Below are positions 1 to 37,014 of a stretch of 64,000 nt of DNA, piece after piece. The notes under the pieces are model-generated. The model was not told the origin of the DNA. It did not search any database and saw only the letters and a program-made list of their open reading frames with translations. Source of the stretch: Squalus acanthias (lineage: Eukaryota); contig JASTWF010000336.1 in assembly GCA_030390025.1 (NCBI GenBank), positions 248,001 to 312,000 on the forward strand, written 5' to 3'. The number at the start of each line of letters is the position of its first letter. The stretch's first letter is position 1. Position numbers and translations under genes: made by a program.

Positions 1-1
1 C

Positions 2-157: not shown

Positions 158-2896
158 GGGCTGCTGGCCGACGACGGATCTCTGGTCTCGGATCCGGAGG
201 GGATCAGCGCGGGGACCCGGGCCTATTACGGGGCTCTGTTCTCTCCGGATCCGTCCAGCGAGGATGCGCGCAGAGTTTTGTGGGAGGACCTGCCGAAGGT
301 CGGCCCGGAGGGCGCCGAAGAATTGGACGCTCCGCTAAGTTTGGCGGAGCTGACCGGCGCCCTGCGCCAGCTCTCGAGGGGAAAGTCCCCGGGGCTGGAC
401 GGGCTGACCGTGGAGTTCCACAGGGCGTTCTGGGACGTCTTGGGGGGCGACTACGCGCGGGTCCTGGGGGAAAGTCTGGCGACCGGGGAGATGCCCCTCT
501 CTTGGCGCAGGGCGGTTATCGTCCTGCTGTCCAAGAGGGGTGATCTCCGCCTTTTAAAAAACTGGCGCCCGGTCTCCCTCCTCAGCACGGACTATAAAAT
601 TTTTGCCAGGGCCATGTCTGCCCGCCTCGGCACCGTGCTGGCCCACATGATCCACCCCGACCAGTCCTACACGGTCCCGGGCCGGACAATCCACGACAAC
701 ATCCATCTGGTCCGGGACCTGGTCCACCTTTCCCAGAGGGCTGGTCTGTCGGTCGCCTTCCTTTCCCTGGATCAGGAGAAGGCGTTCGACAGGGTGGATC
801 ACGAGTATCTCTTCGGGACTCTGCGCGCATTCGGGTTCGGGACGCATTTCGTCGCCCGGATCCGACTTCTGTACACCGCCGCGGAGTGTCTCATTAAAGT
901 TAACGGGTCTTTGACGGCGCCCCTTCGCTTCGGGAGGGGGGTGCGTCAGGGATGCCCCATGTCCGGTCAGTTATATGCCGTTTGCGTGGAGCCTTTCCTG
1001 CGCCTCTTGCGGAAGAGGTTGACGGGACTGGCTCTGCAAGGGCCGGGCGTGGAGGTCGTCCTCTCGGCTTACGCCGATGACGTGCTCCTCATGGTCACGG
1101 ATCCCGTCGACCTGCGGAGGATGCGAGAATGCCAGCAGATTTACTCGGACGCATCCTCCGCCAGGATCAACTGGGAGAAATGTTCTGGACTCCTGGTGGG
1201 CCAGTGGCGGGTGGACTCCCTGCCGGAGGAGTTCAGGCCCTTTGCCTGGAGCACAACACACCTCCTCTACTTGGGAGTCTACCTCAGCCCTGCCGAGGAC
1301 ACCTGGCCGGCGAACTGGCAAGAGCTGGAGGCCAAGGTCACCGCTCGCCTAGGACGCTGGACGGGGTTGCTCCGAGTGTTGTCCTACAGGGGTCGAGCGC
1401 TGGTCATAAACCAGCTGGTGGCCGCCATGTTGTGGTACCGGTTGGTCACTTTGATCCCTCCCCCTGCGTTTGTCGCCAAGATACAGAAGATGCTCATCGA
1501 CTTCTTCTGGGACAAAAGGAAGCACTGGGTCTCTGCCGCGGTTCTGTGTCTCCCGCTTAGGGAGGGCGGTCAGGCGCTGGTGTGCCTTCGCACCCAGGCG
1601 GCGACTTTCCGTCTTCAGACGCTGCAGAGGTACCTTTACGTCGAGAATCCTCCCAGATGGTGTGCGCTGGCGACGTATTTCTTCCGCCAGATGCACGGCC
1701 TCAACTACGACACGCAGCTCCTGTTTGTGGAATTGGGCCGCACGCGAGCCTACCTGTGGGAGCTGCCTGTCTTTTACCAGGAACTGCTATGGGTCTGGAA
1801 CCAGGTCGCCTCCAGGCGGAGTTCTCCCCCGTCAGGAGTGGCGGCTCTCCTTCGGGAGCCGCTGTTCAGGAATCCGCACCTCCACGTCCGACGGATCGGC
1901 TGGCTGGCGGAGGGCAGGGCTGTGCCAGGCAAGGTGACCAGAGTCAGGGACCTGCTCGATGGCGGAGGAGCGGGCTGGATGGCGCCAGAGGAGTTGGCGC
2001 GGCGCCTCTCCTGGACAGACGTCTGGCGCGCGGCCAAAGCCATCGAGTTGCTGAAAGTGGCACTGGGCCCGGACTCCACTAGGTGTATCGAGGAGGCTCA
2101 AGCACGTGGGGCGATCCCGTCCGAACTGACCTCCGTTCGGACGGAATTCCTCATCGGCGCACGGCCCCGAAACCCCTCTCGGGAACCGGCGCCTCACAAC
2201 TTGAGCCGTCTCGGGGAAATGCCCTCCGTGCCCTTCAGTTCTGCACGGAGGGGTTTCCTGTACGGGCTGCTCCTGCACACTTTCCACTTTGTCATCTTCG
2301 CCTGCCGTCCGGACACGCCTTGGCGTGCCATCTTGCCGTCCGGCGGAGGCGAAGGTCCCCAATGGAGGGCTCTCTATGCGGGAGTACTCCCCTTTTCTAT
2401 TGGGGACATGGCCTGGAGGGTGTTGCACGGAGCAGTCCCGTGCAATCGGTTTTTAAGTAGGTTCACGGACTCCCAGGCCGCCTGTCTTTTTTGCGGCCTC
2501 GAGGAGTCCGTGTTCCACGTTTATGTGGAATGCGAGAGGTTGCAGCCCCTCTTTGAATATTTGAAGGGGCTGCTCCTCGCTTTTTGGTTGCACTTCAGTC
2601 CCACGCTCCTGATCTACGGTCACCCGGTGCGGAGGGGAGAGAGCAGGTCGGAGGACCTCCTCGTAGGACTGCTCCTGGGCCTGGCCAAAGTGGCCATTAA
2701 CAGGTCCAGGCAGCGGGCGGTCGAGGGGGTCGTTCGGCCCAATTGCCTGCCTCTCTTCCGCGGCTATGTTCGCGCCCGGGTGGCCCTGGAGATGGAGCAT
2801 GCGGTGTCCGCCGGCACACTTGAAGCCTTCCGAGACCGGTGGGCGCCGCAGGGACTGGAGTGCATCGTTTCCCCGGGAAATGTTATTTTAATTTAA
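158..2896 (+). CDS. Tx1-A1 ORF2, partial (RT plus C-terminal Cys domain, no endonuclease)
   Basis: Motifs KSPGLDG, WRPVSLL, LDQEKAFDRV, GVRQGCP, AYADD and CLFC...HVYVEC. Residues encoded before 158 in the ORF track are foreign sequence. Confidence 0.9.
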   Translation, partial: GLLADDGSLVSDPEGISAGTRAYYGALFSPDPSSEDARRVLWEDLPKVGPEGAEELDAPLSLAELTGALRQLSRGKSPGLDGLTVEFHRAFWDVLGGDYARVLGESLATGEMPLSWRRAVIVLLSKRGDLRLLKNWRPVSLLSTDYKIFARAMSARLGTVLAHMIHPDQSYTVPGRTIHDNIHLVRDLVHLSQRAGLSVAFLSLDQEKAFDRVDHEYLFGTLRAFGFGTHFVARIRLLYTAAECLIKVNGSLTAPLRFGRGVRQGCPMSGQLYAVCVEPFLRLLRKRLTGLALQGPGVEVVLSAYADDVLLMVTDPVDLRRMRECQQIYSDASSARINWEKCSGLLVGQWRVDSLPEEFRPFAWSTTHLLYLGVYLSPAEDTWPANWQELEAKVTARLGRWTGLLRVLSYRGRALVINQLVAAMLWYRLVTLIPPPAFVAKIQKMLIDFFWDKRKHWVSAAVLCLPLREGGQALVCLRTQAATFRLQTLQRYLYVENPPRWCALATYFFRQMHGLNYDTQLLFVELGRTRAYLWELPVFYQELLWVWNQVASRRSSPPSGVAALLREPLFRNPHLHVRRIGWLAEGRAVPGKVTRVRDLLDGGGAGWMAPEELARRLSWTDVWRAAKAIELLKVALGPDSTRCIEEAQARGAIPSELTSVRTEFLIGARPRNPSREPAPHNLSRLGEMPSVPFSSARRGFLYGLLLHTFHFVIFACRPDTPWRAILPSGGGEGPQWRALYAGVLPFSIGDMAWRVLHGAVPCNRFLSRFTDSQAACLFCGLEESVFHVYVECERLQPLFEYLKGLLLAFWLHFSPTLLIYGHPVRRGESRSEDLLVGLLLGLAKVAINRSRQRAVEGVVRPNCLPLFRGYVRARVALEMEHAVSAGTLEAFRDRWAPQGLECIVSPGNVILI

Positions 2897-2918
2897 TGCA
2901 CTCCAAGTTGTCCGCTTC

Positions 2919-3330
2919 GCAGAAGGCCCAAGGTGGAAGACCCGGAGGAGAGTGGCCTGGGCGGGAGGCCCAGCACGGAGAACCCCAGGCGGGGGGCCCA
3001 GGGCGGGGCGGCTGGTCGGCAGAGGTGGAGTCAGGAGATGCGGTTGCTTCACCCCGGGTGCTCGTGGGGAATGCCGGTGCGGAGGGTCCGGTGCAGAAGG
3101 CCCAAGGTGGAAGACCCAGAGGAGAGTGGCCTGGGCGGGAGGCCCAGCACGGAGAACCCCAGGCGGGGGGCCCAGGGCGGGGCGGCTGGTCGGCAGAGGT
3201 GGAGTCGGGAGATGCGGTTGATTCACCCCGGCTGCTCGCGGGGAATGCCGGTGCGGAGGGTCCGGTGCAGAAGGCCCAAGGTGGAAGACCCGGAGGAGAG
3301 TGGCCTGGGCGGGAGGCCCAGCACGGAGAA
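2919..3330 (+). repeat. 174-bp G-rich tandem repeat (about 2.4 units) in the Tx1-A 3' UTR
   Basis: GCAGAAGGCCCAAGG starts at 2919, 3093 and 3267. Confidence 0.92.
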
Positions 3331-4634
3331 CAATTGAGTGGATGGTCGGGTGGGTGGTGCCAGTGGGACTGGCGCAGAACAGGTTTCTTGGGTTATTGGA
3401 GTGGATGTTATATGTGGCATTTAGTTGGATTGTGATGGTGCTATGTGTTTGTACACTGTGGTGTTGAAATGGGTTGTTTTATGTGGAGTTAAGTGAGATG
3501 TATTATTTTAATATAAAAAAAAGTGTGGTATTGTTTGGGGGTATTTGTACTGTATTTTGATGGATGAATGTAATGGTTTTACTATGTAATTTGTATTATT
3601 GGTTTGAATAAAAGATTCACCCCGAGTGCGGTCCCAGGCGAGGACAGACGGAGGCAGAGGCTGAGGCTGCGAGGGACTCAGCTCAACTTGGTGCTACGTG
3701 AACGGGTGAGCGCCGTTTGCTGAGAAGAGGAGGGGAAAGGAGAGGTCTCTTTTCTCTGTGCCTAGAAGGAGAAGGAGCCACGAAGGACAGAGTGGAGACC
3801 TTTCCACCTCCACCACGCCTGCAGCTACAGCTACAACCACGACTGCTGCTGAGGTGAGAGAGGAGAGGAGAGGAGAGAGAGGAGACCAGCAACAACAGAG
3901 GGAAGCCTTTCCATCACTGCCTCCCCAACTGGTCTCCATTTCGAGAGAGGGAGAGAGGGGAGAACAAGACCAACATCTGCTTGGAAGGAGGGAGAGCGAG
4001 CCATCGAGAAGGAAAACAACATCGAGAGGTGGGTGTTAAAAAGGGCACTCTCCAAAAGACTTTGTATTTGAGGTGGGGGGAGGAAAGAAGAAGGAGAAGA
4101 CCGGGATAGCAAGGGGAGTGTGTGTGGCTCTTGCTAACAACTCGGCCACACACACCATCAACAAGCACCCCTTGCCTATTGCTTCACATTTTAGAACATT
4201 GTTAAGACCTGGTTGTAGACTGAGCCTGGGCATCTCCAGCTTTATTTTTTCCCAGGTGAAGACATCTTCTCCCCCCACCAGAAGAACATCAACAAAGACT
4301 TGTATTACATCGGAGAGTGCACCCCCCCCCAGGAGGCACCCACCCACCCACTATCCTGAGTGGCGAATAGGCCCGTGCGGCTTTCCTCCTTCCCACCCCC
4401 TCTCTCTCTCTCTCTCTGCCTCTCTCTAACGAGGCACCTCAAACCTTATTTATTACCCAATTGAGCAGAGGGGAGAAGGCCACTCCCAATTCCAATCATA
4501 AAAGGGAGAGGTGTGCCTTCTTTTTCTCAAAACAACCCCCTCTGCTCGGGGGAAAAGACAAAAAAACCCAAGGCCACTTAAACATCACCCGGCCTGTGAC
4601 TTGGGGTGGGTGTAGCCCTTTATACCACCTCAGT

Positions 4635-6723
4635 ATGGCGAGCACATCTTCGCCGGCGGCGGGGCAAGCAAGGTCGTACGCGGGTGTGGCAGCCACGGCC
4701 ACAGCTGGTCCCGCTGCTTCTGCTGCCCCGTCACCTTTCAGGCTATTGACAAAAAAGCTGGGGGTGAAGAGCTACACTCACCCCAACATGACCATAGAGG
4801 CTTGCGTCAAAGCCATGGCTGGGGTAATCGGCCCCTCAGCCATCGTTGCGGCCTCTAAAATGTACGGTAAGGCTGTGTTCTTCCTGCGGTCGGAGCGGGC
4901 GGTGTCCCTGGCCGTCACCGAGGGGCTCACCGTGGGCGGGACCTTCCTGCCGGTGGATCCGCTCGAGGCCACCGAGCAGCGACTCATACTATCGAATGTC
5001 CCGCCCTTTGTTCCGGTTGAGCTCCTCCTCCCCCACCTACGTCAACTGGGGGAGGTGAGGTCGGGGATTAATCCGATCCCGCTCGGCTGCAGGGAGGCCA
5101 GCCTCCGGCACGTCTTCTCCTTCCGGCGCCAGCTGTTTATCCAGCTGGCGCGGGAGGAAGACACGGAAGGCGCATTTAGCATAACACACGAGGGGACCGC
5201 CTACCGCGTCTTCTGGACGTCGGACGGTGTGCGGTGCCACGCCTGTAAGGAGGTGGGGCACATAAGAAAGAACTGCCCCGCCTCCAAGGCCGCCAAAGCA
5301 TCTGAGGCGGCCAAGGCTGGCGCCGCCGCCGCTCCTCCCCCTGTTTCTGTCCGCGCGTCTGCGACACCCGATGCGCGGTCGACGCCGGAGGTCAACGCCG
5401 TCGCGGCCTCCGGCGAAGGGGAGGGGGAGCGTCCGACTGGAAGGAAGGCGCGGAGCAAAAGCAAACACCTTCAGGCGGGTCCCCTTCACATATATGATGA
5501 CTTACCCGAGCTTACGCCCCTACACCTTGCGCGGGTGGCGGCGGAGTTCGAGAATGCGAGGGACCTTGTGCCCGGGCCTGCGCCCGCATCCGCCAAGGCG
5601 GCAAAATCGAGACCTGCGGCCGTGACCGGGCCCGGGACCCCCGAGCAGACCGATCGACAGGGGGGAGCGGAGGTGGAGGCCTCGGTATGCATGGAGGTCT
5701 CCCAACCTTCGTGTCCCTCCTCTTCGAAAAGGAGGCGCGACATCCTGGATGAGGGGGAGGACCGCGAGGAACGGGGTCCCCCCTCGCAAGGGGAGTCGTT
5801 GCCCGCCGCGGGTGCTGCGCCCCCCCCCACCGACACCATCACCGACATCCGGCAGGGGCCGCCTGTCCCCCGGGAGGGCATGACAGATGAGTCTGTCCAG
5901 CCTGTGCCTCCCGGGGATGGGGGAGAGGCCCTGCTCATGGGGGGGGGCCGCGGAACTACCCGCGGTGGGGAGTTACGCTGATCCGTTGTTTCTCGCCAGG
6001 TCGGGCATCCTGGGGACCGGGGCGGGCGAGGCCGATGAGGCAGAGCCCGCCGTGTACGGTCAGGACCACTCCCAGGCACTGCTCGACCTGGTTGAGCAAT
6101 ATAACCAGGGTACCTGGTCCGCTGGGTCGGAGGATGGTGGCGGTGAAGGGGAAGGCCCCCTGACTCCGTCTGCGACGCTGGCGCCGGGGTTGTTGAGGGA
6201 ACTGGCACTAATGTGCTCCCCGGTTTCCCTGTGCACCCCGGTGCCGGGGGCGGAGGGGGGCCCCGAGCCGCCGCCGCTTCCTGACCCGGCGCCTCTGGAG
6301 GAGCCCAGGGAGGACTCCTCTGCTGCCGATCCTGGGGGTGGGATCGGGGCAGAGGTAGGGCTGGCCGATGGCGACCCCCCGGAGGAGGACGGGGACCCGG
6401 CGGAGGACACTGAGGATGATATGGAATCCGTCGCCAGTGAGGCGGCGGATGCCCTCGTGCCCTCCTCCGGGTCCCCCCTCATCCCCGTTGTGGAACTCCG
6501 GGACTTTGTGGCCATGGGCCAGGGTCGCCAGGATATAATCCGGCTGGCCATCGATAAATGGTCGGATCTGGCGCTGCTCGTTTGCTCCGTCCGCGCCGCA
6601 GTCAAAACCATGGGCGCGGACGGGGGCGTGGGCCTGGCCGAGCGGCGTCGGATCCAGAATTTCCTCGCTGGGCTTGGAAGGGAGTGGCGGTCGACTAGCG
6701 GCCGCGCTCCCTCCTCCCGTTAG
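4635..6723 (+). pseudogene. Tx1-A2 ORF1 (Gag-like, CCHC knuckle), +1 frameshift
   Basis: Starts MASTSS and contains CHACKEVGHIRKNC. The G run at 5939-5947 has 9 G versus 8 in the open A3 copy, which may be a homopolymer error. Confidence 0.85.
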
Positions 6724-6754
6724 AGTAAGGTAGAGGTTGCACTATGCTCTTGTC

Positions 6755-9700
6755 ATGAAGATAACCATAGCCAGCCTCAACATCAACGGCAGCAGAGAGG
6801 CACGCCGTAGATTTAATAACTTCTCGTCCCTTCGGGAAGGGAGGCATGCGGTGTGCTTCCTGCAGGAAACTCACACCGTTCCGGGAGACGAGGCCACGTG
6901 GCTCCTGGAGTGGCGAGGAGGGGTCAGCATGAGTCACCTCTCCAACGTTTCCGGTGGGGTGGCTATCTTGCTGGCCCCGCATTTTCAGCCGGAGATCTTG
7001 GGGGTCAAGGAGCATGTGCCGGGCCGCTTGCTCCAGGTCACTGTTCGTCTGGGGGGCGTGCCGCTCCATTTAGTGAACGTGTACGCCCCCCAGCCCGGTG
7101 CGCAGCAAGTGCGCTTCTTCGATGAAGTGTCCGCTCTTCTGGGCACCGTCGACGTCGGCGAGTGCATCATCCTCGGGGGGGATTTTAATTGTACCCTCGA
7201 GGCGAGGGACCGTTCGGGCCCTCCGCGAAGCCTGACGGCGACGGTGAAGTTGAGGGACCTGGTCGGGTCCTTCGACTTGGTGGACGTCTGGCGAAATCTC
7301 CATCCCGACTCCAGCGCCTTCACTTGGGTGGGGTCTGGAGGAGGAAGGTCCAGAATCGACCGCCTTTATATTTCCCGGGCGTACGTCTCCTGCGTTCCGG
7401 CGGCTTCCATGCGGCCGGTGCCGTGCACGGACCACCACCTGGTGTGGGCGGAGCTCGCTCCGCTGCAGGCGCCGGGGGGGTCCGCGTACTGGCATTTTAA
7501 CAACCTGCTGCTGGAGGACGTGCGGTTCCGGGATTCGTTTCGCCGGTTCTGGGCCGACTGGAGAAGGAAGCAGGGGGGCTTCCCCTCCTTGAGGCTATGG
7601 TGGGACGTGGGCAAGGCTCACGTCCGTCTCTTCTGTCAGGAGTACGCGAAGGGGTCGACCAAGAGGCGGGAGGCCCGGGTCGGGCGATTGGAGAAAGAAG
7701 TGCTCGACCTGGAGTCCCGTCTCGGTCAAGTCGTCGAAGACCCGGCCCTGCGGAAGGTGTACGAAGAGAAGAAGGGCGCGCTGAAGGACCTGCAGCTGGT
7801 CGGGTCCCGAGGCGCGTACGTGAGGTCGCGGATCCAGTTCCTGCGGGACCTGGACCGCGGCTCCCCCTTCTTCTACTCGCTGGAAAAAAGACGAGGGGTC
7901 CGTAAGCAGCTCTTGGGGCTGCTGGCCGACGACGGATCTCTGGTCTCGGATCCGGAGGGGATCAGCGCGGGGACCCGGGCCTATTACGGGGCTCTGTTCT
8001 CTCCGGATCCGTCCAGCGAGGATGCGCGCAGAGTTTTGTGGGAGGACCTGCCGAAGGTCGGCCCGGAGGGCGCCGAAGAATTGGACGCTCCGCTAAGTTT
8101 GGCGGAGCTGACCGGCGCCCTGCGCCAGCTCTCGAGGGGAAAGTCCCCGGGGCTGGACGGGCTGACCGTGGAGTTCCACAGGGCGTTCTGGGACGTCTTG
8201 GGGGGCGACTACGCGCGGGTCCTGGGGGAAAGTCTGGCGACCGGGGAGATGCCCCTCTCTTGGCGCAGGGCGGTTATCGTCCTGCTGCCCAAGAGGGGTG
8301 ATCTCCGCCTTTTAAAAAACTGGCGCCCGGTCTCCCTCCTCAGCACGGACTATAAAATTTTTGCCAGGGCCATGTCTGCCCGCCTCGGCACCGTGCTGGC
8401 CCACATGATCCACCCCGACCAGTCCTACACGGTCCCGGGCCGGACAATCCACGACAACATCCATCTGGTCCGGGACCTGGTCCACCTTTCCCAGAGGGCT
8501 GGTCTGTCGGTCGCCTTCCTTTCCCTGGATCAGGAGAAGGCGTTCGACAGGGTGGATCACGAGTATCTCTTCGGGACTCTGCGCGCATTCGGGTTCGGGA
8601 CGCATTTCGTCGCCCGGATCCGACTTCTGTACGCCGCCGCGGAGTGTCTCATTAAAGTTAACGGGTCTTTGACGGCGCCCCTTCGCTTCGGGAGGGGGGT
8701 GCGTCAGGGATGCCCCATGTCCGGTCAGTTATATGCCGTTTGCGTGGAGCCTTTCCTGCGCCTCTTGCGGAAGAGGTTGACGGGACTGGCTCTGCAAGGG
8801 CCGGGCGTGGAGGTCGTCCTCTCGGCTTACGCCGATGACGTGCTCCTCATGGTCACGGATCCCGTCGACCTGCGGAGGATGCGAGAATGCCAGCAGATTT
8901 ACTCGGACGCATCCTCCGCCAGGATCAACTGGGAGAAATGTTCTGGACTCCTGGTGGGCCAGTGGCGGGTGGACTCCCTGCCGGAGGAGTTCAGGCCCTT
9001 TGCCTGGAGCACAACACACCTCCTCTACTTGGGAGTCTACCTCAGCCCTGCCGAGGACACCTGGCCGGCGAACTGGCAAGAGCTGGAGGCCAAGGTCACC
9101 GCTCGCCTAGGACGCTGGACGGGGTTGCTCCGAGTGTTGTCCTACAGGGGTCGAGCGCTGGTCATAAACCAGCTGGTGGCCGCCATGTTGTGGTACCGGT
9201 TGGTCACTTTGATCCCTCCCCCTGCGTTTGTCGCCAAGATACAGAAGATGCTCATCGACTTCTTCTGGGACAAAAGGAAGCACTGGGTCTCTGCCGCGGT
9301 TCTGTGTCTCCCGCTTAGGGAGGGCGGTCAGGCGCTGGTGTGCCTTCGCACCCAGGCGGCGACTTTCCGTCTTCAGACGCTGCAGAGGTACCTTTACGTC
9401 GAGAATCCTCCCAGATGGTGTGCGCTGGCGACGTATTTCTTCCGCCAGATGCACGGCCTCAACTACGACACGCAGCTCCTGTTTGTGGAATTGGGCCGCA
9501 CACGAGCCTACCTGTGGGAGCTGCCTGTCTTTTACCAGGAACTGCTATGGGTCTGGAACCAGGTCGCCTCCAGGCGGAGTTCTCCCCCGTCAGGAGTGGC
9601 GGCTCTCCTTCGGGAGCCGCTGTTCAGGAATCCGCACCTCCACGTCCGACGGATCGGCTGGCTGGCGGAGGGCAGGGCTGTGCCAGGCAAGGTGACCAGA

Positions 9701-10655
9701 GTCAGGGACCTGCTCGATGGCGGAGGAGCGGGCTGGATGGCGCCAGAGGAGTTGGCGCGGCGCCTCTCCTGGACAGACGTCTGGCGCGCGGCCAAAGCCA
9801 TCGAGTTGCTGAAAGTGGCACTGGGCCCGGACTCCACTAGGTGTATCGAGGAGGCTCAAGCACGTGGGGCGATCCCGTCCGAACTGACCTCCGTTCGGAC
9901 GGAATTCCTCATCGGCGCACGGCCCCGAAACCCCTCTCGGGAACCGGCGCCTCACAACTTGAGCCGTCTCGGGGAAAATGCCCTCCGTGCCCTTCAGTTC
10001 TGCACGGAGGGGTTTCCTGTACGGGCTGCTCCTGCACACTTTCCACTTTGTCATCTTCGCCTGCCGTCCGGACACGCCTTGGCGTGCCATCTTGCCGTCC
10101 GGCGGAGGCGAAGGTCCCCAATGGAGGGCTCTCTATGCGGGAGTACTCCCCTTTTCTATTGGGGACATGGCCTGGAGGGTGTTGCACGGAGCAGTCCCGT
10201 GCAATCGGTTTTTAAGTAGGTTCACGGACTCCCAGGCCGCCTGTCTTTTTTGCGGCCTCGAGGAGTCCGTGTTCCACGTTTATGTGGAATGTGAGAGGTT
10301 GCAGCCCCTCTTTGAATATTTGAAGGGGCTGCTCCTCGCTTTTTGGTTGCACTTCAGTCCCACGCTCCTGATCTACGGTCACCCGGTGCGGAGGGGAGAG
10401 AGCAGGTCGGAGGACCTCCTCGTAGGACTGCTCCTGGGCCTGGCCAAAGTGGCCATTAACAGGTCCAGGCAGCGGGCGGTCGAGGGGGTCGTTCGGCCCA
10501 ATTGCCTGCCTCTCTTCCGCGGCTATGTTCGCGCCCGGGTGGCCCTGGAGATGGAGCATGCGGTGTCCGCCGGCACACTTGAAGCCTTCCGAGACCGGTG
10601 GGCGCCGCAGGGACTGGAGTGCATCGTTTCCCCGGGAAATGTTATTTTAATTTAA
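6755..10655 (+). pseudogene. Tx1-A2 ORF2 (APE endonuclease-RT), +1 frameshift near 9975
   Basis: Motifs SLNING, LQETH, GGDFN, SRIDR, TDH and YADD. GGGGAAAATG here versus GGGGAAATG in A1 and A3. Confidence 0.88.
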
Positions 10656-10677
10656 TGCACTCCAAGTTGTCCGCTTC

Positions 10678-11089
10678 GCAGAAGGCCCAAGGTGGAAGAC
10701 CCGGAGGAGAGTGGCCTGGGCGGGAGGCCCAGCACGGAGAACCCCAGGCGGGGGGCCCAGGGCGGGGCGGCTGGTCGGCAGAGGTGGAGTCAGGAGATGC
10801 GGTTGCTTCACCCCGGGTGCTCGTGGGGAATGCCGGTGCGGAGGGTCCGGTGCAGAAGGCCCAAGGTGGAAGACCCAGAGGAGAGTGGCCTGGGCGGGAG
10901 GCCCAGCACGGAGAACCCCAGGCGGGGGGCCCAGGGCGGGGCAGCTGGTCGGCAGAGGTGGAGTCGGGAGATGCGGTTGATTCACCCCGGCTGCTCGCGG
11001 GGAATGCCGGTGCGGAGGGTCCGGTGCAGAAGGCCCAAGGTGGAAGACCCGGAGGAGAGTGGCCTGGGCGGGAGGCCCAGCACGGAGAA
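10678..11089 (+). repeat. 174-bp tandem repeat in the A2 3' UTR
   Basis: Copy of 2919-3330. Confidence 0.9.
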
Positions 11090-11376
11090 CAATTGAGTGG
11101 ATGGTCGGGTGGGCGGTGACAGTGGGACTGGCGCGGAACAGGTTTCTTGGGTTATTGGAGTGGATGTTATATGTGGCATTTAGTTGGATTGTGATGGTGC
11201 TATGTGTTTGTACACTGTGGTGTTGAAATGGGTTGTTTTATGTGGAGTTAAGTGAGATGTATTATTTTAATATAAAAAAAAGTGTGGTATTGTTTGGGGG
11301 TATTTGTACTGTATTTTGATGGATGAATGTAATGGTTTTACTATGTAATTTGTATTATTGGTTTGAATAAAAGATT

Positions 11377-11786
11377 CACACCCCTTGGATGTTCCGGCCT
11401 TCTTCTTTTTCTTCTTTCCTCCCCCCACCTACAAAACAAAGTCTCTGGGAGAGTGCCCCAGAATCACACCCACCTGTAGCTGTTGTTCTTTCCTTCCTCC
11501 CTCCTTCCAAACAGATGATGTTTGTTGTTGATGTTTTCTCCCCTCTCTCCCTCTCCTGAAATGGAGGCCAATTGAGGAGGCAGTGTGGAAAGGCCTCTCC
11601 TCTGTTGTTAATGGCCTTGGCCTTCCTTTCCTTCTCCTTCTCCTTCTCCTGTCCTGTCCTCTCTCTCCAGGCACCTCAGTAGTGGTTGTTGGTTGTTGGT
11701 GGTGGTCTGCTGTCTGGTCTCCTTCTCCTTCTCCTCTTCCTGCTCACAGAGACCACCACTCTGCTGCTGCTGCTGCTGCTCCTCAC
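11377..11786 (-). mobile_element. Distal 5' UTR remnant of a Tx1-B copy (B0) whose body is presumably left of the window
   Basis: Homologous to 18553-18966 and 33508-33911. Starts at the (CA)nCCCC site. Confidence 0.88.
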
Positions 11787-11832
11787 AAGCTTGTGATTTC
11801 AAATAAAGCTGTTGGACTATAACCTGGTGTTG
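11787..11832 (+). repeat. 46-bp Penelope-derived target duplication between B copies
   Basis: AAGCTTGTGATTTCAAATAAAGCTGTTGGACTATAACCTGGTGTTG is identical at 11787, 18967 and 33912, and is homologous to 57705-57750. Confidence 0.9.
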
Positions 11833-11898
11833 CTCTTTTTGGTTTGTCAAATCAAAATTTACTGTAATCAATTAAAACTTTAAATGAAACTTAACAAA

Positions 11899-14800
11899 TC
11901 AAATCAAAATTTGGAAGTCCGGGGTGACGATGCACTCCAGTCCCCGCGGCGCCCACCGGTCGCGGAAAAACTCAAGCGTGCCGGCGGACACCGCGTGCTC
12001 CATCTCCAGGGCCACCCGGGCGCGAACATGGCCGCGGAAGAGAGGCAGGCAATCGGGCCGAACGACCCCCTCGACCGCCCGCTGCCTGGACCAATTAATG
12101 GCTTTCTTGGCCAGGCCCAGGAGCAGTCCTACGAGGAGGTCCTCCGACCTACCCGCTCCCCTCCGCACCGGGTGACCGTAGATCAGGAGCGTGGGGCTGA
12201 AGTGCAACCAGAAATTGAGGAGCAGCCCCTTCAAATAATGAAAGAGGGGCTGCAACCTCTCACACTCAATATAAATGTGATAGACGGACTCCTCCAGGCC
12301 GCAGAAATGACAAGCAGCCTGGGAGTCCGTAAACCTACTTAAAATCCTATTGCACGGGACTGCTCCGTGCAACACCCTCCAGGCCAAGTCCCCAATAGAA
12401 CAAGGGAAGACTCCCGCGTAGAGAGCCTTCCAATGGGGACCTTCGCCTCCGCCGGACGGCAGGATGGTACGCCAAGGCGTGTCCGGACGGCAGACGAAGA
12501 TGGCAAAGTGGAGAGTGTGCAGGAGCAGCCCGTACAGGAAACGCCTCCGTGCGGATTGAAAGGGCACGGAGGGCATTTCTCCGAGAAGGCTCAAGTGGTG
12601 AGGCGGCGGCTCCCGAGGGAGGATTCGGGGCCGGGCGCCGATAAGGAATTCCGTCCGAACGGAGGTCAGTTCGGACGGGATCGCCCCACGTGCTTGAGCC
12701 TCCTCGACACACCTAGTGGAGACGGGGCCCAGTGCCACTTTTAGCGACTCGATGGCTTTGACCGCGAGCCGGACGTTGACCCAAGACATGCGCCTCGCCA
12801 ACTCCTCCGGCGCCATCCAGCCCGCTCCTCCGCCATCGAGCAGGTCCCCGACTCTGGTCACCTTACCGGGCACAGCCCTGCCCTCCGCCAGCCAGCCGAA
12901 CCCGCGGTCGTGGAGGTGCGGATTCCTGAACAGCGGCTCCCGAAGGACGGCCGCCGCTCCTGACGGGGGAGAACTGCGCTCGGAGGCGACGCTGTTCCAA
13001 ACCCATAGCAGTTCCTGGTAGAAGACAGGCAGCTCCCGCAGGCTGGCACGCGTGCCACCCACTCTCACAAACAGGAGCAGCGTGTCGTAATTGAGGCCGT
13101 GCAGCTGGCGGAAGAAATACGTCGCCAGCGCACGCCACCTAGGAGGATTCTCCACGTACAGGTATCTCTGCAGCGTCTGAAGACGGAAAGTCGCCGCCTG
13201 GGTGCGAAGGCACACCAGCGCCTGACCGCCCTCCCTAAGCGGGAGACTCAAAACCGCGGCAGAGACCCAGTGCTTCCTTTTGTCCCAGAAGAAGTCGACG
13301 AGCTTCTTCTGCATCTTGGCGACAAACGCAGGGGGAGGGATCAAAGTGACCAACCGGTACCACAACATGGCGGCCACCAGCTGGTTTATGACCAGCGCTC
13401 GACCCCTGTAGGACAACACTCTGAGCAGTCCTGTCCAGCGCCCTAGGCGAGCGGTGACTTTGGCCTCCAGCTCTTGCCAGTTCGCCGGCCAGGCGTCCTC
13501 GGCCGGGCTGAGGTAGACTCCCAGGTAGAGGAGGTGCGTGGTGCTCCAGGCGAAAGGCCCGAACTCCTCCGGCAGGGAGTCCACCTGCCATGGGCCCACC
13601 AGGAGTCCAGAACATTTCTCCCAGTTGATCTTGGCGGAGGATGCGTCCGAGTAAATCTGCTGGCATTCTCGCATCCTCCGCAAGTCGACGGGATCCGTGA
13701 CCGCGAGGAGCACGTCATCGGCGTAAGCCGAGAGGACCACCTCCACGCCCGGCCCTTGCAGAGCCAGTCCCGTCAACCTCTTCCGCAAGAGGCGCAGGAA
13801 AGGCTCCACGCAAACGGCGTATAACTGACCGGACATGGGGCATCCCTGACGCACCCCCCTCCCGAAGCGAAGGGGCGCCGTCAAAGACCCGTTAACTTTA
13901 ATGAGACACTCCGCGGCGGCGTACAGAAGTCGGATCCGGGCGACGAAATGCGTCCCGAACCCGAATGCGCGCAGAGTCCCGAAAAGATACTCGTGATCCA
14001 CCCTGTCGAACGCCTTCTCCTGATCCAGGGAAAGGAAGGCGACCGACAGACCAGCCCTCTGGGAATGGTGGACCAGGTCCCGGACCAGATGGATGTTATC
14101 GTGGATACTCCGGCCCGGGACCGTGTAGGACTGGTCGGGGTGGATCATGCGGGCCAGCACGGTGCCAAGGCGAGCAGACATAGCCCTGGCGAAAATTTTG
14201 TAGTCCGTGCTGAGGAGGGAGACCGGGCGCCAGTTCTTAAGTAGGCGGAGATCGCCCTTCTTGGGCAGCAGGACGATGACCGCCCTGCGCCAAGAGAGGG
14301 GCATCTCCCCGGTCGCCAGACTTTCCCCCAGGACCCGCGCGTAGTCGTCCCCCAAGACGTCCCAGAACGCCCTGTGGAACTCCACGGTCAGCCCGTCCAG
14401 CCCCGGGGACTTGCCCCTCGAGAGCTGGCGCAGGGCGCCGGTCAGCTCCGCCAGGCTTAGCGGAGCTTCTAAATTCTCGGCGCCCTCCGGGCCGACCTTC
14501 GGCAGGTCCTCCCACAAAACTCTGCGCGCATCCTCGCTGGACGGATCCGAAGAGAACAGAGCCCCGTAATAGGCCCGGGCCTCCGCGCTGATGCCCTCCG
14601 GATCCGAGACCAGAGATCCGTCGTCGGCCAGCAGCCCCAAGAGCTGCTTACGGACCCCCCGTCTTTTTTCCAGCGAGTAGAAGAAGGGGGAGCCGCGGTC
14701 CAGGTCCCGCAGGAACTGGATCCGCGACCTCACGTACGCGCCTCGGGACCCGACCAGCTGCAGGTCCTTCAGCGCGCCCTTCTTCTCTTCGTACACCTTC

Positions 14801-15798
14801 CGCAGGGCCGGGTCCTCGACGACTTGACCGAGACGGGACTCCAGGTCGAGCACTTCTTTCTCCAATCGCCCGACCCGGGCCTCCCGCCTCTTGGTCGACC
14901 CCTTCGCGTACTCCTGACAGAAGACGCGGACGTGAGCCTTGCCCACGTCCCACCATAGCCTCAAGGAGGGGAAGCCTCCCCGCTTCCTTCTCCAGTCGGC
15001 CCAGAACCGGCGAAACGAATCCCGGAACCGCGCGTCCTCCAGCAGCAGGTTGTTAAAATGCCAGTACGCGGACCCCCCCCGCGCGCGCAGCGGAGCGAGC
15101 TCCGCCCACACCAGGTGGTGGTCCGTGCACGGCACCGGCCGCATGGAAGCCGCCGGAACGCAGGAGACGTACGCCCGGGAAATGTAAAGGCGGTCGATTC
15201 TGGACCTTCCTCCTCCAGACCTCACGCTCGTGAAGGCGCTGGAGTCGGGATGGAGATTTCGCCAGACGTCCACCAAGTCGAAGGACCCGACCAGGTCCCG
15301 CAACTTCTCCATCGCCGCTGGGCTTCGCGGGGGACCCGACCGGTCCCGCGCCTCGAGGGTACAATTGAAATCCCCCCCGAGGATGACGCACTCGCCCACG
15401 TCGATGGAGCCCAGAAGAGCGGACACTTCTCCGAAGAAGCGCACTTGCTGCGCACCGGTCCGGGGGGCGTACACGTTCACTAAATGGAGCGGCACGCCTC
15501 CCAGGCGAACAGTGACCTGGAGCAAGCGGCCCGGCACGTGCTCCTTGACCCTCAAGATCTCCGGCTGAAAATGCGGGGCCAGCAAGACAGCCACCCCGCA
15601 GGAATTGTTGGAGAGGTGACTCATGCTGACCCCTCCTTGCCACTCCAGGAGCCACGTGGCCTCGTCTCCCGGAACGGTGTGGGTTTCTTGCAGGAAGCAC
15701 ACCGCATATTTCCCGTCCCGAAGGACCGAGAAGTTATTGAATCTACGGCGCGCCTCCCTGCTGCCGTTGATGTTGAGGCTGGCTATGGTTATCTTCAT
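11899..15798 (-). CDS. Tx1-B1 ORF2, intact (1299 aa APE-RT)
   Basis: Open from MKITIASLNING to the stop, with EN, RT (YADD) and CHFC...HIYIEC motifs. Confidence 0.93.
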   Translation of the reverse strand: MKITIASLNINGSREARRRFNNFSVLRDGKYAVCFLQETHTVPGDEATWLLEWQGGVSMSHLSNNSCGVAVLLAPHFQPEILRVKEHVPGRLLQVTVRLGGVPLHLVNVYAPRTGAQQVRFFGEVSALLGSIDVGECVILGGDFNCTLEARDRSGPPRSPAAMEKLRDLVGSFDLVDVWRNLHPDSSAFTSVRSGGGRSRIDRLYISRAYVSCVPAASMRPVPCTDHHLVWAELAPLRARGGSAYWHFNNLLLEDARFRDSFRRFWADWRRKRGGFPSLRLWWDVGKAHVRVFCQEYAKGSTKRREARVGRLEKEVLDLESRLGQVVEDPALRKVYEEKKGALKDLQLVGSRGAYVRSRIQFLRDLDRGSPFFYSLEKRRGVRKQLLGLLADDGSLVSDPEGISAEARAYYGALFSSDPSSEDARRVLWEDLPKVGPEGAENLEAPLSLAELTGALRQLSRGKSPGLDGLTVEFHRAFWDVLGDDYARVLGESLATGEMPLSWRRAVIVLLPKKGDLRLLKNWRPVSLLSTDYKIFARAMSARLGTVLARMIHPDQSYTVPGRSIHDNIHLVRDLVHHSQRAGLSVAFLSLDQEKAFDRVDHEYLFGTLRAFGFGTHFVARIRLLYAAAECLIKVNGSLTAPLRFGRGVRQGCPMSGQLYAVCVEPFLRLLRKRLTGLALQGPGVEVVLSAYADDVLLAVTDPVDLRRMRECQQIYSDASSAKINWEKCSGLLVGPWQVDSLPEEFGPFAWSTTHLLYLGVYLSPAEDAWPANWQELEAKVTARLGRWTGLLRVLSYRGRALVINQLVAAMLWYRLVTLIPPPAFVAKMQKKLVDFFWDKRKHWVSAAVLSLPLREGGQALVCLRTQAATFRLQTLQRYLYVENPPRWRALATYFFRQLHGLNYDTLLLFVRVGGTRASLRELPVFYQELLWVWNSVASERSSPPSGAAAVLREPLFRNPHLHDRGFGWLAEGRAVPGKVTRVGDLLDGGGAGWMAPEELARRMSWVNVRLAVKAIESLKVALGPVSTRCVEEAQARGAIPSELTSVRTEFLIGARPRILPREPPPHHLSLLGEMPSVPFQSARRRFLYGLLLHTLHFAIFVCRPDTPWRTILPSGGGEGPHWKALYAGVFPCSIGDLAWRVLHGAVPCNRILSRFTDSQAACHFCGLEESVYHIYIECERLQPLFHYLKGLLLNFWLHFSPTLLIYGHPVRRGAGRSEDLLVGLLLGLAKKAINWSRQRAVEGVVRPDCLPLFRGHVRARVALEMEHAVSAGTLEFFRDRWAPRGLECIVTPDFQILI

Positions 15799-15823
15799 CT
15801 CAGAAGCATAGTGCAACCTCTAC

Positions 15824-17981
15824 CTAACGGAGGGGAGGGAGGGCGGTCACTGACGACCGCCACTCCCTCAGCAGCCCAGTGTGGAACGTCTTGAGCTGAC
15901 GCAGCTCGAGCCGGCCAACGTCCTTGTCCGCGCCCATGATTTTAACGGCGGCGCGGACGGACACGACGAGCAGCGTCAGCTCCGACCACTTGTCGAGGGC
16001 CAGCCAGATCTTCTTGTGACGACCCTGGCTCATGGCCATAAAATCCCGGAGTTCCCCTACGGGGATGAGGGGAGAGTCGGTGAAGGGCACGAGGGCGTCC
16101 ATCGCCTCGCTGCCGATGGACTCCAAATCGTCCTCGATGCCCCCCACCGAGTCCCCGTCCTCCTCCGGGAGGTCGTCACCGGCGGCCAACCCGTCCGTCA
16201 CACAGGGTGCAGCGAACGGCTCGGCCGCACCGGCCGGCCCCGCCTCCGTCACGATCCCACCCCCAGGATCGGTGGCAGAGGAGTCCACCCTGGGCTCCTT
16301 CAGGGGCGCCGGGCCGGGAGGCGGCGGCGGCGGTTCGGGGCCCCCCCCCCGCCTCAGGCGCCGGGGCGACCGGAGAAACCGGGGAGAAAATAATCCCAAA
16401 TTCCTCCAGCACGTCCGGCGCCAACAACAGAGACGGAGTCAGGGGGCTTTCCGTCTCCCCGCCACCAACCTCCGACCCAGCGGGCTGGGGATTGCTACAC
16501 TCCTCCACCAGGTCGAGCAGTCCCTGGGAGATATCTGGGTTATAAAAGGCGGGCTCGGCTTCAGCCTCTTTGGCCTCGCCCGCCCCAGTCCCCAGGACGC
16601 CCGACCCGGCGAGGAGCAACGGTTCAGGTTCTACATTTTCTTCCGCGGGTTGTTCCGCGCCCCCCCCCACGGGCAGGGTCTCTTCCCCATCCCCGGGAGG
16701 CACAGGTCGGACAGACTCGGCTGTCTCACCCTCCCGAGGGACAGACGACCCCTGCCGATCGCGCGCGACGATGACGGTGGTGGGGTGGGGCGCAGCACCC
16801 GCGGCGGGCGACTGCCCCCCTTTTGCGGAGGGACCTTCCTCCTCGCAGTCCTCCTGCTGGGGGCGGAGCTTTCTTTTTAACGTATTGGGACCCGGAGAGG
16901 GGGAGGCCTCCATGTCTGCTGGGGCCTCCCTCTCTGCCCCCTTCCGACGACTGGGTTTCTTGGGCCCCTCGGGCCCGAGCCCGGCCGCAGGTCTTGATTC
17001 AGCTGCCTCAGCAGTTGCGGTCACGGTCACGGGCCCGGGCACGAGGACCCCCCCAGTCTCATGCGTCCCGACCAACTCCGCGATATACTCGGGCGTGAGT
17101 TCGGTCAATTCCGATGTTTCCTCCGCGAGGGGATCCGCCCTTAGGTGTTTAGTTTTCCTACGCGCCTTCCTTCCCCCCGGACGCTCTCCCTCCTCCCCGC
17201 CGGAGGCCGTGGTGGTGTTGGCCTCCGATTTCAACCGCGCATCCGTCGCCGTCGACGCGCGGACAGTATCAGGGGGAGGGGGGGCGGCAGCGCCAACCCT
17301 GGCCGCGCCAGGTGTCGTGGCGGCCTTGGAGGCGGGGCAGTTTTTGCGGACGTGCCCCACCTCCTTACAGGCGTAGCACCGCGCGCCGTCCGAGGTCCAG
17401 AAGACGCGGTGGGCGGTCCCCCCGTGGAGCACCGTGAACGCGCCGTCCGCGTCCTCCTCCCGCGCCAGCCGGACGAAAAGCTGGCGCCGGAAGGAGAAGA
17501 CGTGCCGAAGGCTGGCTTCCCGGAAGCCGAGCGGGATGGGTGTGATCCCCGACCTCACCTCCCCCAGTTGACGTAGGTGGGGGAGGAGGAGCTCACCCGG
17601 AACAAAGGGCGGGACGTTGGAAACCACAATCCTTTGCGCGGTGGCCTCAAGGGGGTCCACCGGCAGGAAGGTCCCGCCCACGGTGAGCCCCTTCTCGATG
17701 GCCAGGGACACCGCCCGCTCCGACCCCAGGAAGAACACAGCCTTGCCGTACATTTTAGAGGCGGCGACGATGGCTGAAGGGCCGACAACCCCAGCCATGG
17801 CTTTAACGCACGCCTCTATAGTCATGTTGGGGTGAGTGTAGCTCTTGACCCCATTCTTCCTCGTAAGGAGGGTAAAAGGTGACGGGGTAACAGGAGGACT
17901 CGTGGCTGCGGCCGTGGCCGCGGCTGCCACGCTCGCATACGTCCTCGCTGCCCCCGCCACCGACGAAGATGTACTCGCCAT
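15824..17981 (-). pseudogene. Tx1-B1 ORF1 with a +1 shift at a G10 run (16341-16350)
   Basis: CYACKEVGHVRKNC knuckle. Homology to the A ORF1 C-terminus (GGPEPPP...LDKWS) resumes in another frame after the G10. Confidence 0.82.
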
Positions 17982-18966
17982 AATGGAGGGTTCTTTAAGG
18001 GCTACACTCACCCCAAGTCACAGGCCTGAAGGTGTTAATGGCCTCGGTTTTTTATTTCTGTTTTCCCCTGAGCAGAGGGAGCTCTTAAATTGAAGGCACA
18101 CCTCTCCCTTTAGTTGATTGAATTAGGAGAGGGGCCTTCTCCCCTCTGCTCAATAGGTACTTAATTAAAAGATAATGAGGTGCCTCTTAGAGAGAGAGGC
18201 AGAGAGAGACAAGAGACAAAGAGAGAGAGAGAGGGGGGTGGGAAGGAGGGAAGCCGCAAGGGCAGGGTCGCCACTCAGGATGGTGGGTGGGTGGGTGTTG
18301 GCAGGGGGGTGCACTCTCCGATGTAATAAAAGTCTTTGGTGGTGGTCTTCTGGTGGGGGGAGAAGATGTCTTCATCTGGGATAGCTGGAGATGCCCAGGC
18401 TCAGTCCTGCACCAGGTCTTAACGATGCCCAATTGGATTAAATTAATTGGGGAACTTCACCTAGGCAGCTCCAGCTGTCCCAGGTCAGGCAATGGGAAAG
18501 GGGTGTTTAATATGGTGTGTGCGGCCTAGCTTTTACAAAAGCCACACACACACACACCCCTTGGATGTTCCGGCCTTCTTCTTTTTCTTCTTTCCTCCCC
18601 CCACCTACAAAACAAAGTCTCTGGGAGAGTGCACCAGAATCACACCCACCTGTAGCTGTTGTTTTTTCCTTCCTTCCTCCTTCCAAACAGATGATGGATG
18701 TTTTGTTGTTTTCTCCCCTCTCTCCCTCTCCTAAAATGGAGGCCAATTGAGGAGGCAGTGTGGAAAGGCCTCTCCTCTGGTGTTAATGGCCTTGGCCTTC
18801 CTTTCCTTCTTTTCTTTCTCCTCTCCTGTCCTCTCTCTCCAGGCACCTCAGTAGTTGTGGTTGTAGTGGTTGTTGTTGGTGGTGGCCTGCTGTCTGGTCT
18901 GCTTCTCCTTCTCCTCTTCCTGCTCACAGAGACCACCACTCTGCTGCTGCTGCTGCTGCTCCTCAC

Positions 18967-19012
18967 AAGCTTGTGATTTCAAATAAAGCTGTTGGACTAT
19001 AACCTGGTGTTG
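18967..19012 (+). repeat. 46-bp target duplication between B1 and B2
   Basis: Identical to 11787-11832. Confidence 0.9.
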
Positions 19013-19080
19013 ATCTTTTTGGTTTGACAGAACGCAAATTTACTGTAAATCAATTAAAACTTGAAATGAAACTTAATAAA

Positions 19081-22980: not shown

Positions 22981-23005
22981 CTCAGAAGCATAGTGCAACC
23001 TCTAC

Positions 23006-28845: not shown

Positions 28846-28876
28846 AGTAAGGTAGAGGTTGCACTATGCTCTTGTC

Positions 28877-32776: not shown

Positions 32777-32798
32777 TGCACTCCAAGTTGTCCGCTTC

Positions 32799-33210
32799 GC
32801 AGAAGGCCCAAGGTGGAAGACCCGGAGGAGAGTGGCCTGGGCGGGAGGCCCAGCACGGAGAACCCCAGGCGGGGGGCCCAGGGCGGAGCGGCTGGTCGGC
32901 AGAGGTGGAGTCAGGAGATGCGGTTGCTTCACCCCGGGTGCTCGTGGGGAATGCCGGTGCGGAGGGTCCGGTGCAGAAGGCCCAAGGTGGAAGACCCAGA
33001 GGAGAGTGGCCTGGGCGGGAGGCCCAGCACGGAGAACCCCAGGCGGGGGGCCCAGGGCGGGGCGGCTGGTCGGCAGAGGTGGAGTCGGGAGATGCGGTTG
33101 ATTCACCCCGGCTGCTCGCGGGGAATGCCGGTGCGGAGGGTCCGGTGCAGAAGGCCCAAGGTGGAAGACCCGGAGGAGAGTGGCCTGGGCGGGAGGCCCA
33201 GCACGGAGAA
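32799..33210 (+). repeat. 174-bp tandem repeat in the A3 3' UTR
   Basis: Copy of 2919-3330. Confidence 0.9.
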
Positions 33211-33911: not shown

Positions 33912-34009
33912 AAGCTTGTGATTTCAAATAAAGCTGTTGGACTATAACCTGGTGTTGTGCGACTTCTCACTTTTGTCCACCCCAGTCCAACACCGGCATC
34001 TCCACATCA
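33912..34009 (+). mobile_element. 3' end of the host Penelope-like terminal repeat (pLTR)
   Basis: The 46-bp unit continues TGCGACTTCTCACTTTTGTCCACCCCAGTCCAACACCGGCATCTCCACATCA, matching the reverse complement of 55288-55385 at the Penelope terminus. Confidence 0.88.
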
Positions 34010-35942: not shown

Positions 35943-36251
<309 letters not shown>

Positions 36252-36998: not shown

Positions 36999-37014
36999 GG
37001 CTCTGAAAAGAGCC
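36999..37014 (-). terminator. Histone stem-loop of the H2A pseudogene
   Basis: GGCTCTTTTCAGAGCC on the minus strand. Confidence 0.88.

What the first reader, a model, noticed from the sequence alone, without database searches (positions are those of the whole stretch)
4105..4130. Possible self-immunity: A's own copy of the target site is broken
Seen: the A 5' UTR is homologous to B here but reads CAAGGGG-A-GTGTGTGTGGCT (also at 26225-26250), versus CAAGGGG-(TG)7-GCT in B. The target strand is therefore (CA)4CTCCCC rather than (CA)7CCCC, and neither A copy with a visible 5' UTR is interrupted there. Inference: A avoids inserting into itself while still attacking B.
Basis: partly seen in the sequence, partly recalled or inferred. 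Interest (0 to 1): 0.75.

Follow-up and report, generated by a model that had tools for sequence, protein, structure and literature searches.

The report
LINE with a variable self-target site
A jumping gene that lands at one spot in its sister element carries a one-letter mismatch at the matching spot in its own copies here, which likely makes them poor targets; but copies in two other samples keep that spot intact, so this is likely a recent repeat-slippage variant and not a family-wide self-immunity.

Summary
Observation confirmed: both A copies read GGGG-AG-(TG)4-GCT (4110-4129, 26230-26249); sister family B reads GGGG-(TG)7-GCT. A and B are Tx1-clade LINEs (ORF2 about 91% identical), probably of a cartilaginous fish. 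A sits antisense in B's 5' UTR, here and in another sample. The change that likely matters is the single base A4117, two bases from the inferred nick, not the shorter CA run. Avoidance is not shown: 0 of 2 versus 2 of 3 gives P=0.3, the copies are not independent, and only 41 of 856 18-column windows of the two UTRs are identical anyway. Two other samples hold A with GGGG-(TG)4-AG-(TG)4-GCT, a perfect predicted target, so the window form is likely a young 8-bp deletion in an unpaired linker of a conserved RNA hairpin. A also inserts directly against itself (3618-3623), so there is no cis target immunity. Best reading: slippage variant with incidental protection (0.5). A selected resistance allele stays open (0.3), and the two alleles make it testable. 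Genome-wide counts could not be run. The scan noted A-in-B targeting before on this window, and sister-LINE targeting in other genomes.

The parts
4110..4129 (+). A2's own homologue of the target site: GGGG, A4117, G, (TG)4, GCT; target strand (CA)4CTCCCC
26230..26249 (+). A3's homologue of the target site, identical to A2's
4103..4182 (+). Predicted RNA hairpin of the A 5' UTR: lower stem 4105-4116 with 4168-4180, upper stem 4118-4129 with 4144-4155; A4117 is the single unpaired base between them
   Evidence: -38.2 kcal/mol, z -4.98, 0 of 200 shuffles; B homologue z -4.22, 1 of 200
18543..18560 (+). Intact target in B-II, (CA)7CCCC followed by TTGGATG (antisense strand of B's 5' UTR)
158..3617 (+). 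A1, 3' part of an A copy; its 5' part is not in view (1-157 is unrelated sequence)
3618..3623 (+). A1/A2 head-to-tail junction, CACCCC between A1's 3' end and A2's 5' end
3624..11376 (+). A2, full-length Tx1-clade LINE; ORF1 from 4635 (ends early at 5981), ORF2 6755-10219 (frame leaves the B/A3 frame near its end)
11377..11384 (+). A2 3' junction, (CA)2CCCC then B sequence
11385..11832 (-). B-III, 5' half of the UTR only, including the 46-bp target-like head
11860..19012 (-). B-II, full-length uninterrupted B copy; ORF2 11899-15819 open (1306 aa stop to stop)
19030..25722 (-). B-I, part downstream of the A3 insertion; ORF2 19081-23001 open
25723..25738 (+). A3 5' junction, (CA)6CCCC; still a perfect match to the inferred 10-bp nick footprint
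25739..33497 (+). A3, full-length A copy; ORF2 has one in-frame stop ending at 31276
33498..33515 (+). A3 3' junction, (CA)7CCCC then B sequence
33516..33957 (-). B-I, 5' half of the UTR, adjoining a Penelope-like host repeat (33912-34009 matches 55288-55385)
   Evidence: Penelope label recalled from the hammerhead-like motif and from earlier finding e1-8036631, not tested here

Best explanation
The two A copies here differ from B's landing site by one base next to the inferred cut, likely because a recent slippage deletion removed a (TG)4 block from an interrupted microsatellite; this likely makes these copies poor targets as a side effect, while other A copies keep a predicted perfect target. 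Mechanism, step by step. Shown: A's 5' junction is fixed at CCCC|GAGTG and its 3' junction carries 1, 2 or 7 CA units. Inferred: A's endonuclease nicks the G-rich strand about two bases past GGGG (GGGTG^TGTGT), giving a core duplication CACCCC, with extra CA from nick register or template slippage. Shown: the window's A reads GGGAG^TGTGT there, one mismatch. Inferred: this lowers nicking and mis-pairs the primer end. Shown: contigs of two other samples read GGGG(TG)4AG(TG)4GCT. Inferred: that form is ancestral (B has T after GGGG; one 8-bp deletion converts it into the window form; no simple tandem duplication does the reverse). Predicted: the deleted bases lay in the unpaired linker between two conserved stems, so the change was free to drift.
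For: Variant with CA-CCCC intact: X11 record 21 (A-type UTR 3890-4137, 1 other letter, 8 letters put in behind 4115, depth 10.2) and X10 record 13 with its 16-letter loose end before 4116 (depth 8.41). In X10 all 6 of 6 laid contigs are listed, both A-in-B junctions are present at similar depth (6.36, 8.22) and no window-form contig is. A difference at the site is expected: 41 of 856 identical 18-column windows. No power in the window: P=0.30; the two interrupted B heads differ by 1 substitution in 447 but by 16 from the intact B, and A2/A3 differ by 32 in 7751, so both A-in-B cases may descend from one event (P=0.45 for <=1 change at the A2/A3 divergence). A4117 is unpaired in a hairpin kept in both families. 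The exact 10-mer occurs 3 times in 64 kb, all in B-derived site DNA; none of 44 one-mismatch positions adjoins a further A end.
Against: The deletion removes exactly the bases at the inferred nick and looks young and derived, which is also what a selected resistance allele would look like. In X11 the CACCCC-led A 5' end has depth 3.35 against 10.2 for the UTR contig, and other A-like 5' variants are present, so the intact form there may belong to a subfamily that does not target B, and a minority window-type path may have been dropped by the assembler. In X10 the site contig and the junction contig are separate records, so linkage is inferred from depth only. X3 (organism A) shows no 8-letter insertion at 4115 (0 of summed depth 1151), compatible with the window form prevailing there. 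The nick position is inferred from junctions alone.
Confidence: 0.5

Rival explanations
1. Selected self-resistance allele. After A began to target the (CA)nCCCC hairpin arm that it shared with B, master copies with an intact site were knocked out by their own progeny; a deletion at the nick (by slippage, or as a repair scar of A's own cut) made one lineage resistant, and it is now spreading.
For: The change is derived, lies two bases from the inferred nick inside a roughly 10-bp footprint, and uses the one position that spares both hairpin stems. Both window copies have it. The hazard is real: 2 of 3 B copies here are hit, and X10's dominant A junctions are in B. X3 shows no intact-form insertion.
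Against: No A-in-A insertion at an intact allele was seen, so the cost that selection would need is not shown (the skims could not show a minority). X10's dominant A form appears both B-inserted and intact at its own site. Microsatellite indels are common in these UTRs (4 indels between two otherwise near-identical B heads).
Confidence: 0.28
2. All A copies are protected by something other than this base: targeting would depend on B-specific context, such as pairing of read-through RNA with B's downstream TTGGATG, or on B's chromatin or transcription. The flagged change is then irrelevant.
For: A differs from B from the fourth base after CCCC (TTGC versus TTGG) and upstream of the CA run. The intact-allele contigs in X10 and X11 are uninterrupted as far as they reach. 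An earlier unreviewed note (e1-8036632) proposes RNA-carried target letters.
Against: The A1/A2 junction has GAGTG after CCCC, which on the simpler order of events (A1 into A2's left junction, which keeps a perfect footprint as at 25728) shows that TTGG is not needed. A and B endonucleases differ in the specificity loop (FTWVGS versus FTSVRS). The order A1/A2 is unresolved because A1's 5' flank is not in view.
Confidence: 0.14
3. The site is not functionally broken; A inserts into A here too, and two closely related copies simply missed it.
For: With a per-copy hit rate of 0.12 to 0.5, the chance of 0 of 2 is 0.77 to 0.25. Isolated site-specific APE endonucleases are loose in vitro (PMC1919474 passages). 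A copies inside B are younger than their hosts and have had less exposure.
Against: None of 44 one-mismatch positions in the window, 20 of them in host DNA, adjoins a further A end. No A-in-A junction among the 6 of 6 X10 contigs. Two-base changes within 5 bp of the nick cut R1Bm nicking sharply.
Confidence: 0.08

Closest known systems
Tx1L of Xenopus laevis (UniRef YTX2 entry, P0032), inserting into the transposon Tx1D
   Same: Two-ORF LINE with APE endonuclease and RT; 49% identity over the first 500 aa of B's ORF2; sequence-specific insertion into another mobile element (PMC4494074 passages).
   Different: Target there is an unrelated DNA transposon, so the element has no homologue of its own target. 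Here the target is a sister LINE's 5' UTR, of which A has its own copy. The specificity loop is three residues shorter.
Crocodilian Tx1-Mar, Tx1-9_AMi, Tx1-8_Crp, Tx1-4_AMi; Kibi and Koshi (PMC4494074 passages)
   Same: Tx1 families aimed at transposons or microsatellites; tandem insertions that sandwich one target duplication are described for SINEU-3, like A1/A2.
   Different: None of the passages read describes a target inside a sister Tx1 family, or variation in the element's own copy of the target.
Zebrafish Mutsu and 5S rRNA variants (PMC5340908 passages)
   Same: Sequence differences at a LINE's target are proposed to block insertion.
   Different: The protected sequence is a host gene, not the element itself; protection is proposed there, not measured.
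Target immunity of Tn3, Tn7 and Mu; cut-resistant alleles of homing endonucleases and gene drives (recalled, from no call)
   Same: An element escapes its own insertion machinery. The resistant-allele case is what the window allele would work like.
   Different: Target immunity is protein-mediated, acts in cis over distance and ignores target sequence; A inserts flush against another A. Homing elements destroy their site by sitting in it; A carries a separate copy of the site.

Membership tests
Tx1 clade LINE | ORF1 with CCHC knuckle, ORF2 with N-terminal APE endonuclease and RT | tested here: met
   Exo_endo_phos and RVT_1 above cut-off in A and B ORF2; zf-CCHC 20.9 bits in B (cut-off 20.8), 19.7 in A2, no hit in A3 ORF1; L1-EN matches
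Tx1 clade LINE | RT phylogeny groups with Tx1L | not tested
   no tree built; best named full-length relative is Xenopus Tx1 149 kDa at 49% versus 26-39% for most fish and unnamed hits (query residues 1-500 of B ORF2)
Target-specific Tx1 family (criterion: over 20% of flanks of one type, PMC4494074) | Recurrent insertion at one site with target duplication | tested here: met
   small sample: 3 of 3 A 3' ends are followed by (CA)nCCCC, 2 of 3 then by B; 2 of 2 5' ends are preceded by CACCCC; both junctions in X10. Window cases may share one origin
Transposon target immunity (Tn3/Tn7/Mu type, recalled) | DNA near an existing copy is protected in cis whatever its sequence | tested here: not met
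   A1 abuts A2 with only CACCCC between; caveat: a tandem could also arise by recombination
Self-resistance by a mutated recognition site (homing-endonuclease or drive type, recalled) | The element's own site lacks the recognition sequence throughout the family | tested here: not met
   X10 and X11 contigs keep (CA)4CCCC; met only for the two window copies
Self-resistance by a mutated recognition site | The altered site is not cut by the element's nuclease | not testable with these tools
   needs a nicking assay; inferred only
Self-resistance by a mutated recognition site | Intact alleles are hit, altered alleles are not, after correcting for age | tested here: inconclusive
   no genome held; deep runs break at junctions and low-depth runs drop minorities

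The most novel reading that the evidence does not exclude
A LINE that parasitises its sister family is caught evolving resistance to itself: an intact, self-vulnerable allele and a deletion allele at the nick site coexist in the family, the deletion possibly a scar of the element's own cut, placed at the one position that spares a conserved 5' UTR hairpin, and spreading in the B-targeting subfamily.
Probability: 0.28. Interest if true: 0.65.

Novelty: new variant of a known kind. Interest (0 to 1): 0.36.

Why it matters
An element that targets a sequence it also carries must either tolerate self-destruction or lose the site. If the window allele is selected, this would be a natural counterpart, among LINEs, of resistance alleles against homing endonucleases, and would show conflict between element families shaping a non-coding sequence. 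Two natural alleles at about 99% identical background make both the biochemical footprint of a Tx1 endonuclease and the selection claim directly testable. If it is drift, the finding is a footnote to the A-in-B targeting already noted for this window.

Tried and rejected
Genome-wide count: no genome is held for this window. Lay of 25300-34050 on X1, X3, X11, X16: tables were cut (15 of 98 joints, 24 of 1540 loose ends shown), nothing usable at the A site. Lay of 3540-4200: in the deep runs X1 and X3 the known A-in-B junctions were not among the loose ends shown (23 of 54 rows shown over all runs) and contigs end at A's 3' end, so their lack of A-in-A rows is not used; the 2 joints listed do not involve the site. 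Searches for relatives with flanks found nothing: metagenome contigs, genome contigs (43), viral contigs (44), earlier notes by sequence or relatives (28, 30) and by self-immunity words (29). Rfam: no family in the elements, only a tRNA and 4 histone stem-loops further right. Rejected: CA-run length as the break (short 3' junctions of 1-2 CA place the nick next to CCCC, so 4 versus 7 units lies outside a 10-bp footprint; inferred); CACCCC alone as the target (14 copies in A2, all uninterrupted); treating the two A-in-B insertions as independent; a B/A chimera as the source of the intact allele (A-type letters on both sides). The three-way A alignment was faulty for A1 and was redone. Christensen et al. 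2000 on Tx1L endonuclease was not held.

Full report
Setting. Window 158-33957 is an array of two sister LINE families. Each has an ORF1 with a weak CCHC knuckle and an ORF2 with an APE endonuclease and reverse transcriptase. A3 and B-II ORF2 are identical at 1188 of 1307 columns, 219 of 245 over the endonuclease part. The best named full-length relative is the Xenopus Tx1 149-kDa protein at 49%; a Heterodontus fragment is 75% identical, so the host is probably a cartilaginous fish (inference). Read on the minus strand the array runs: host repeat, B-I head, A3 (antisense), B-I remainder, B-II whole, B-III head, A2, A1. A1 starts at 158; bases 1-157 are unrelated, so its 5' flank is not in view.

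Observation. It is exact. A2 (4110-4129) and A3 (26230-26249) read CAAGGGG, A, G, (TG)4, GCT; B-II reads CAAGGGG (TG)7 GCT, and the UTRs align across the site. Neither A is interrupted; 2 of 3 B copies are. This contrast has no statistical weight: Fisher one-sided P=0.30. Nor are the cases independent. The two interrupted B heads differ by 1 substitution in 447 but by 16 from the intact B, and A2 and A3 differ by 32 in 7751; one A-in-B event later copied as a block fits (P=0.45 for at most one change at the A2/A3 divergence), though the 3' junctions differ in CA number and a B subfamily bias is possible. A difference between A and B somewhere in the site is also expected: only 41 of 856 18-column and 147 of 864 10-column windows of the UTR alignment are identical.

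What A recognises. The 5' junction is CCCC|GAGTG in 2 of 2 window copies; the 3' junction has 1, 2 or 7 CA units before CCCC. Sample X10 gives both A-in-B junctions as contigs, the 3' one with a single CA. I infer a nick on the G-rich strand about two bases past GGGG. Site-specific APE endonucleases need about 10 bp around the nick, and two-base changes within 5 bp sharply reduced R1Bm nicking; the same paper cites about 10 bp for Tx1L (PMC1919474, passages; the Tx1L paper itself was not held). Taking 5 bases each side, the exact 10-mer occurs 3 times in the window, all in B-derived site DNA (18550, 25728, 33505). There are 44 one-mismatch positions, 20 in host DNA, and they include A's own site in register; A's ends occur only at the known junctions. 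So the relevant change is the single base A4117, not 4 versus 7 CA units. The left junction of an A insertion keeps the full 10-mer, which explains the A1/A2 tandem as a re-insertion in front of A2 and implies that the bases after CCCC are dispensable; the opposite order cannot be excluded. A and B endonucleases differ in the beta-hairpin loop that affects target choice in L1 (A FTWVGS, B FTSVRS; PMC1950540 passages), which fits their different targets but was not tested.

Is the break a family trait? 23 runs were listed, 19 holding half the words or more, under six coded organism labels; I laid five of them. In X11 (organism B) an A-type UTR contig spans 3890-4137 with one other letter and eight letters put in behind 4115, depth 10.2. 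In X10 a contig matches 4116-4184 with one other letter and a 16-letter 5' end that gives the same reading, depth 8.41. Both read GGGG(TG)4AG(TG)4GCT (for X10, if its one unlisted difference were at 4117 the tract would be pure TG; either way CA-CCCC is whole). This form matches the 10-mer perfectly. In X10 all 6 of 6 laid contigs are listed, the A-in-B junction contigs have depths 6.36 and 8.22, and no window-type or A-in-A contig appears. Since B has T after GGGG and one 8-bp deletion turns this form into the window form, the window allele is likely derived, and young, as X11's A pieces differ from the window by 0 to 11 letters per 300-560. Limits, which cut against my reading: contigs drop minority paths; depth is not copy number; neither contig has 31 letters on both sides of the site; in X10 site and junction lie on different records; in X11 the CACCCC-led 5' end has depth only 3.35 and other A-like heads exist, so the intact allele there may mark a subfamily with another target; X3 shows the insertion in 0 of a summed depth of 1151. 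The deep runs X1 and X3 did not show the known A-in-B junctions among the rows displayed, so their silence on A-in-A is not evidence.

Structural context. The site is the 5' arm of a predicted hairpin in both families (A z=-4.98, 0 of 200 shuffles; B z=-4.22, 1 of 200). In A, GGGG belongs to a lower stem and (TG)4 to an upper stem; A4117 is the one unpaired base between them, opposite a 12-base bulge. The extra bases of the other allele would lie in that linker (by eye, not folded). The linker is thus free to vary, which suits drift, but it is also the only cheap place to break the target, which suits selection.

Verdict on mechanism. Most likely (0.5) a slippage deletion in an interrupted microsatellite that incidentally spoils the target in this A lineage. 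Next (0.28) a selected resistance allele, perhaps a repair scar of A's own nick. Then (0.14) protection of all A by B-specific context or RNA pairing, and (0.08) no protection at all. Taken together, that the window allele is a poorer substrate is about three in four; that it is an evolved immunity is under one in three.

Comparison with what is known. Tx1 families aimed at other transposons or microsatellites, and tandem insertions sharing a duplication, are described (PMC4494074, passages). Target-site variation as a shield is proposed for zebrafish 5S genes against Mutsu (PMC5340908, passages). Target immunity of bacterial transposons and resistant alleles of homing endonucleases are recalled, not read; the first fails its defining test here, the second is what the window allele would work like, but it is not fixed in the family. 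Seven literature searches (listings and abstract starts only) returned no paper on a LINE with an altered copy of its own target; the library lacks most subscription journals and Repbase. Earlier unreviewed notes of this scan describe A-in-B on this window (e1-8036632), B in Penelope ends (e1-8036631, e1-8587290) and antisense sister-LINE targeting in other genomes (e1-7633578, e1-9960891); none was found on self-immunity.

Score. The sequence difference is real and sits in a telling place, but avoidance is unproven and the family is polymorphic. Interest 0.36; new variant of a known kind.

Noticed in passing
window 1-157: Unrelated sequence ending in TTACA abuts A1 inside ORF2 at 158; looks like the end of an LTR inserted into A1 (guess from the terminal CA), or a deletion junction.
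   Followed up: no
window 3048, 3222, 10807, 10981, 32928, 33102: A's 3' UTR holds a 174-bp tandem repeat whose units contain TTCACCCCG; one unit shares 11 bases with the A1/A2 junction (GATTCACCCCG). Possibly a relic of an older target or junction.
   Followed up: partly
window 3558-3617 (X1 and X3): The last 60 bases of A are shared with another, far deeper element with a different upstream sequence; a SINE or family using A's 3' tail is possible.
   Followed up: no
window 4092 (X1): Three contigs diverge here into a different sequence at the homologous site, suggesting a third related family with yet another version of the target.
   Followed up: no
window 3674-3696 and 3711, 3724 (X3 and X11): A second A-like 5' variant is common; one X11 contig joins the A head at 3711 to sequence like A's 3' UTR repeat, perhaps an internally deleted derivative.
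   Followed up: no
window 33498 (X3 and X11): Loose ends before B's (CA)nCCCC differ from both A's 3' end and B's own flank; other elements may use the same site, but the consensus is of mixed contigs.
   Followed up: no
window 32583-32756 and 33507-33750 (X16 record 23): A head-to-tail junction of a B-like element in organism D, so B-type tandems are not confined to this genome.
   Followed up: no
window 11787-11832, 18967-19012, 33912-33957: Each B head carries the same 46-bp stretch that matches the host repeat at 55288-55385; B copies form a three-unit tandem.
   Followed up: partly
window 16176-18017 and 23357-25198: Both B ORF1 frames end about 80 codons earlier than A3's ORF1, after an apparent frame change shared by the two copies.
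   Followed up: no
window 36231-47484: Four histone 3' UTR stem-loops and one tRNA-like sequence (41467-41538) lie right of the array; 49763-61347 is a degenerate satellite.
   Followed up: no
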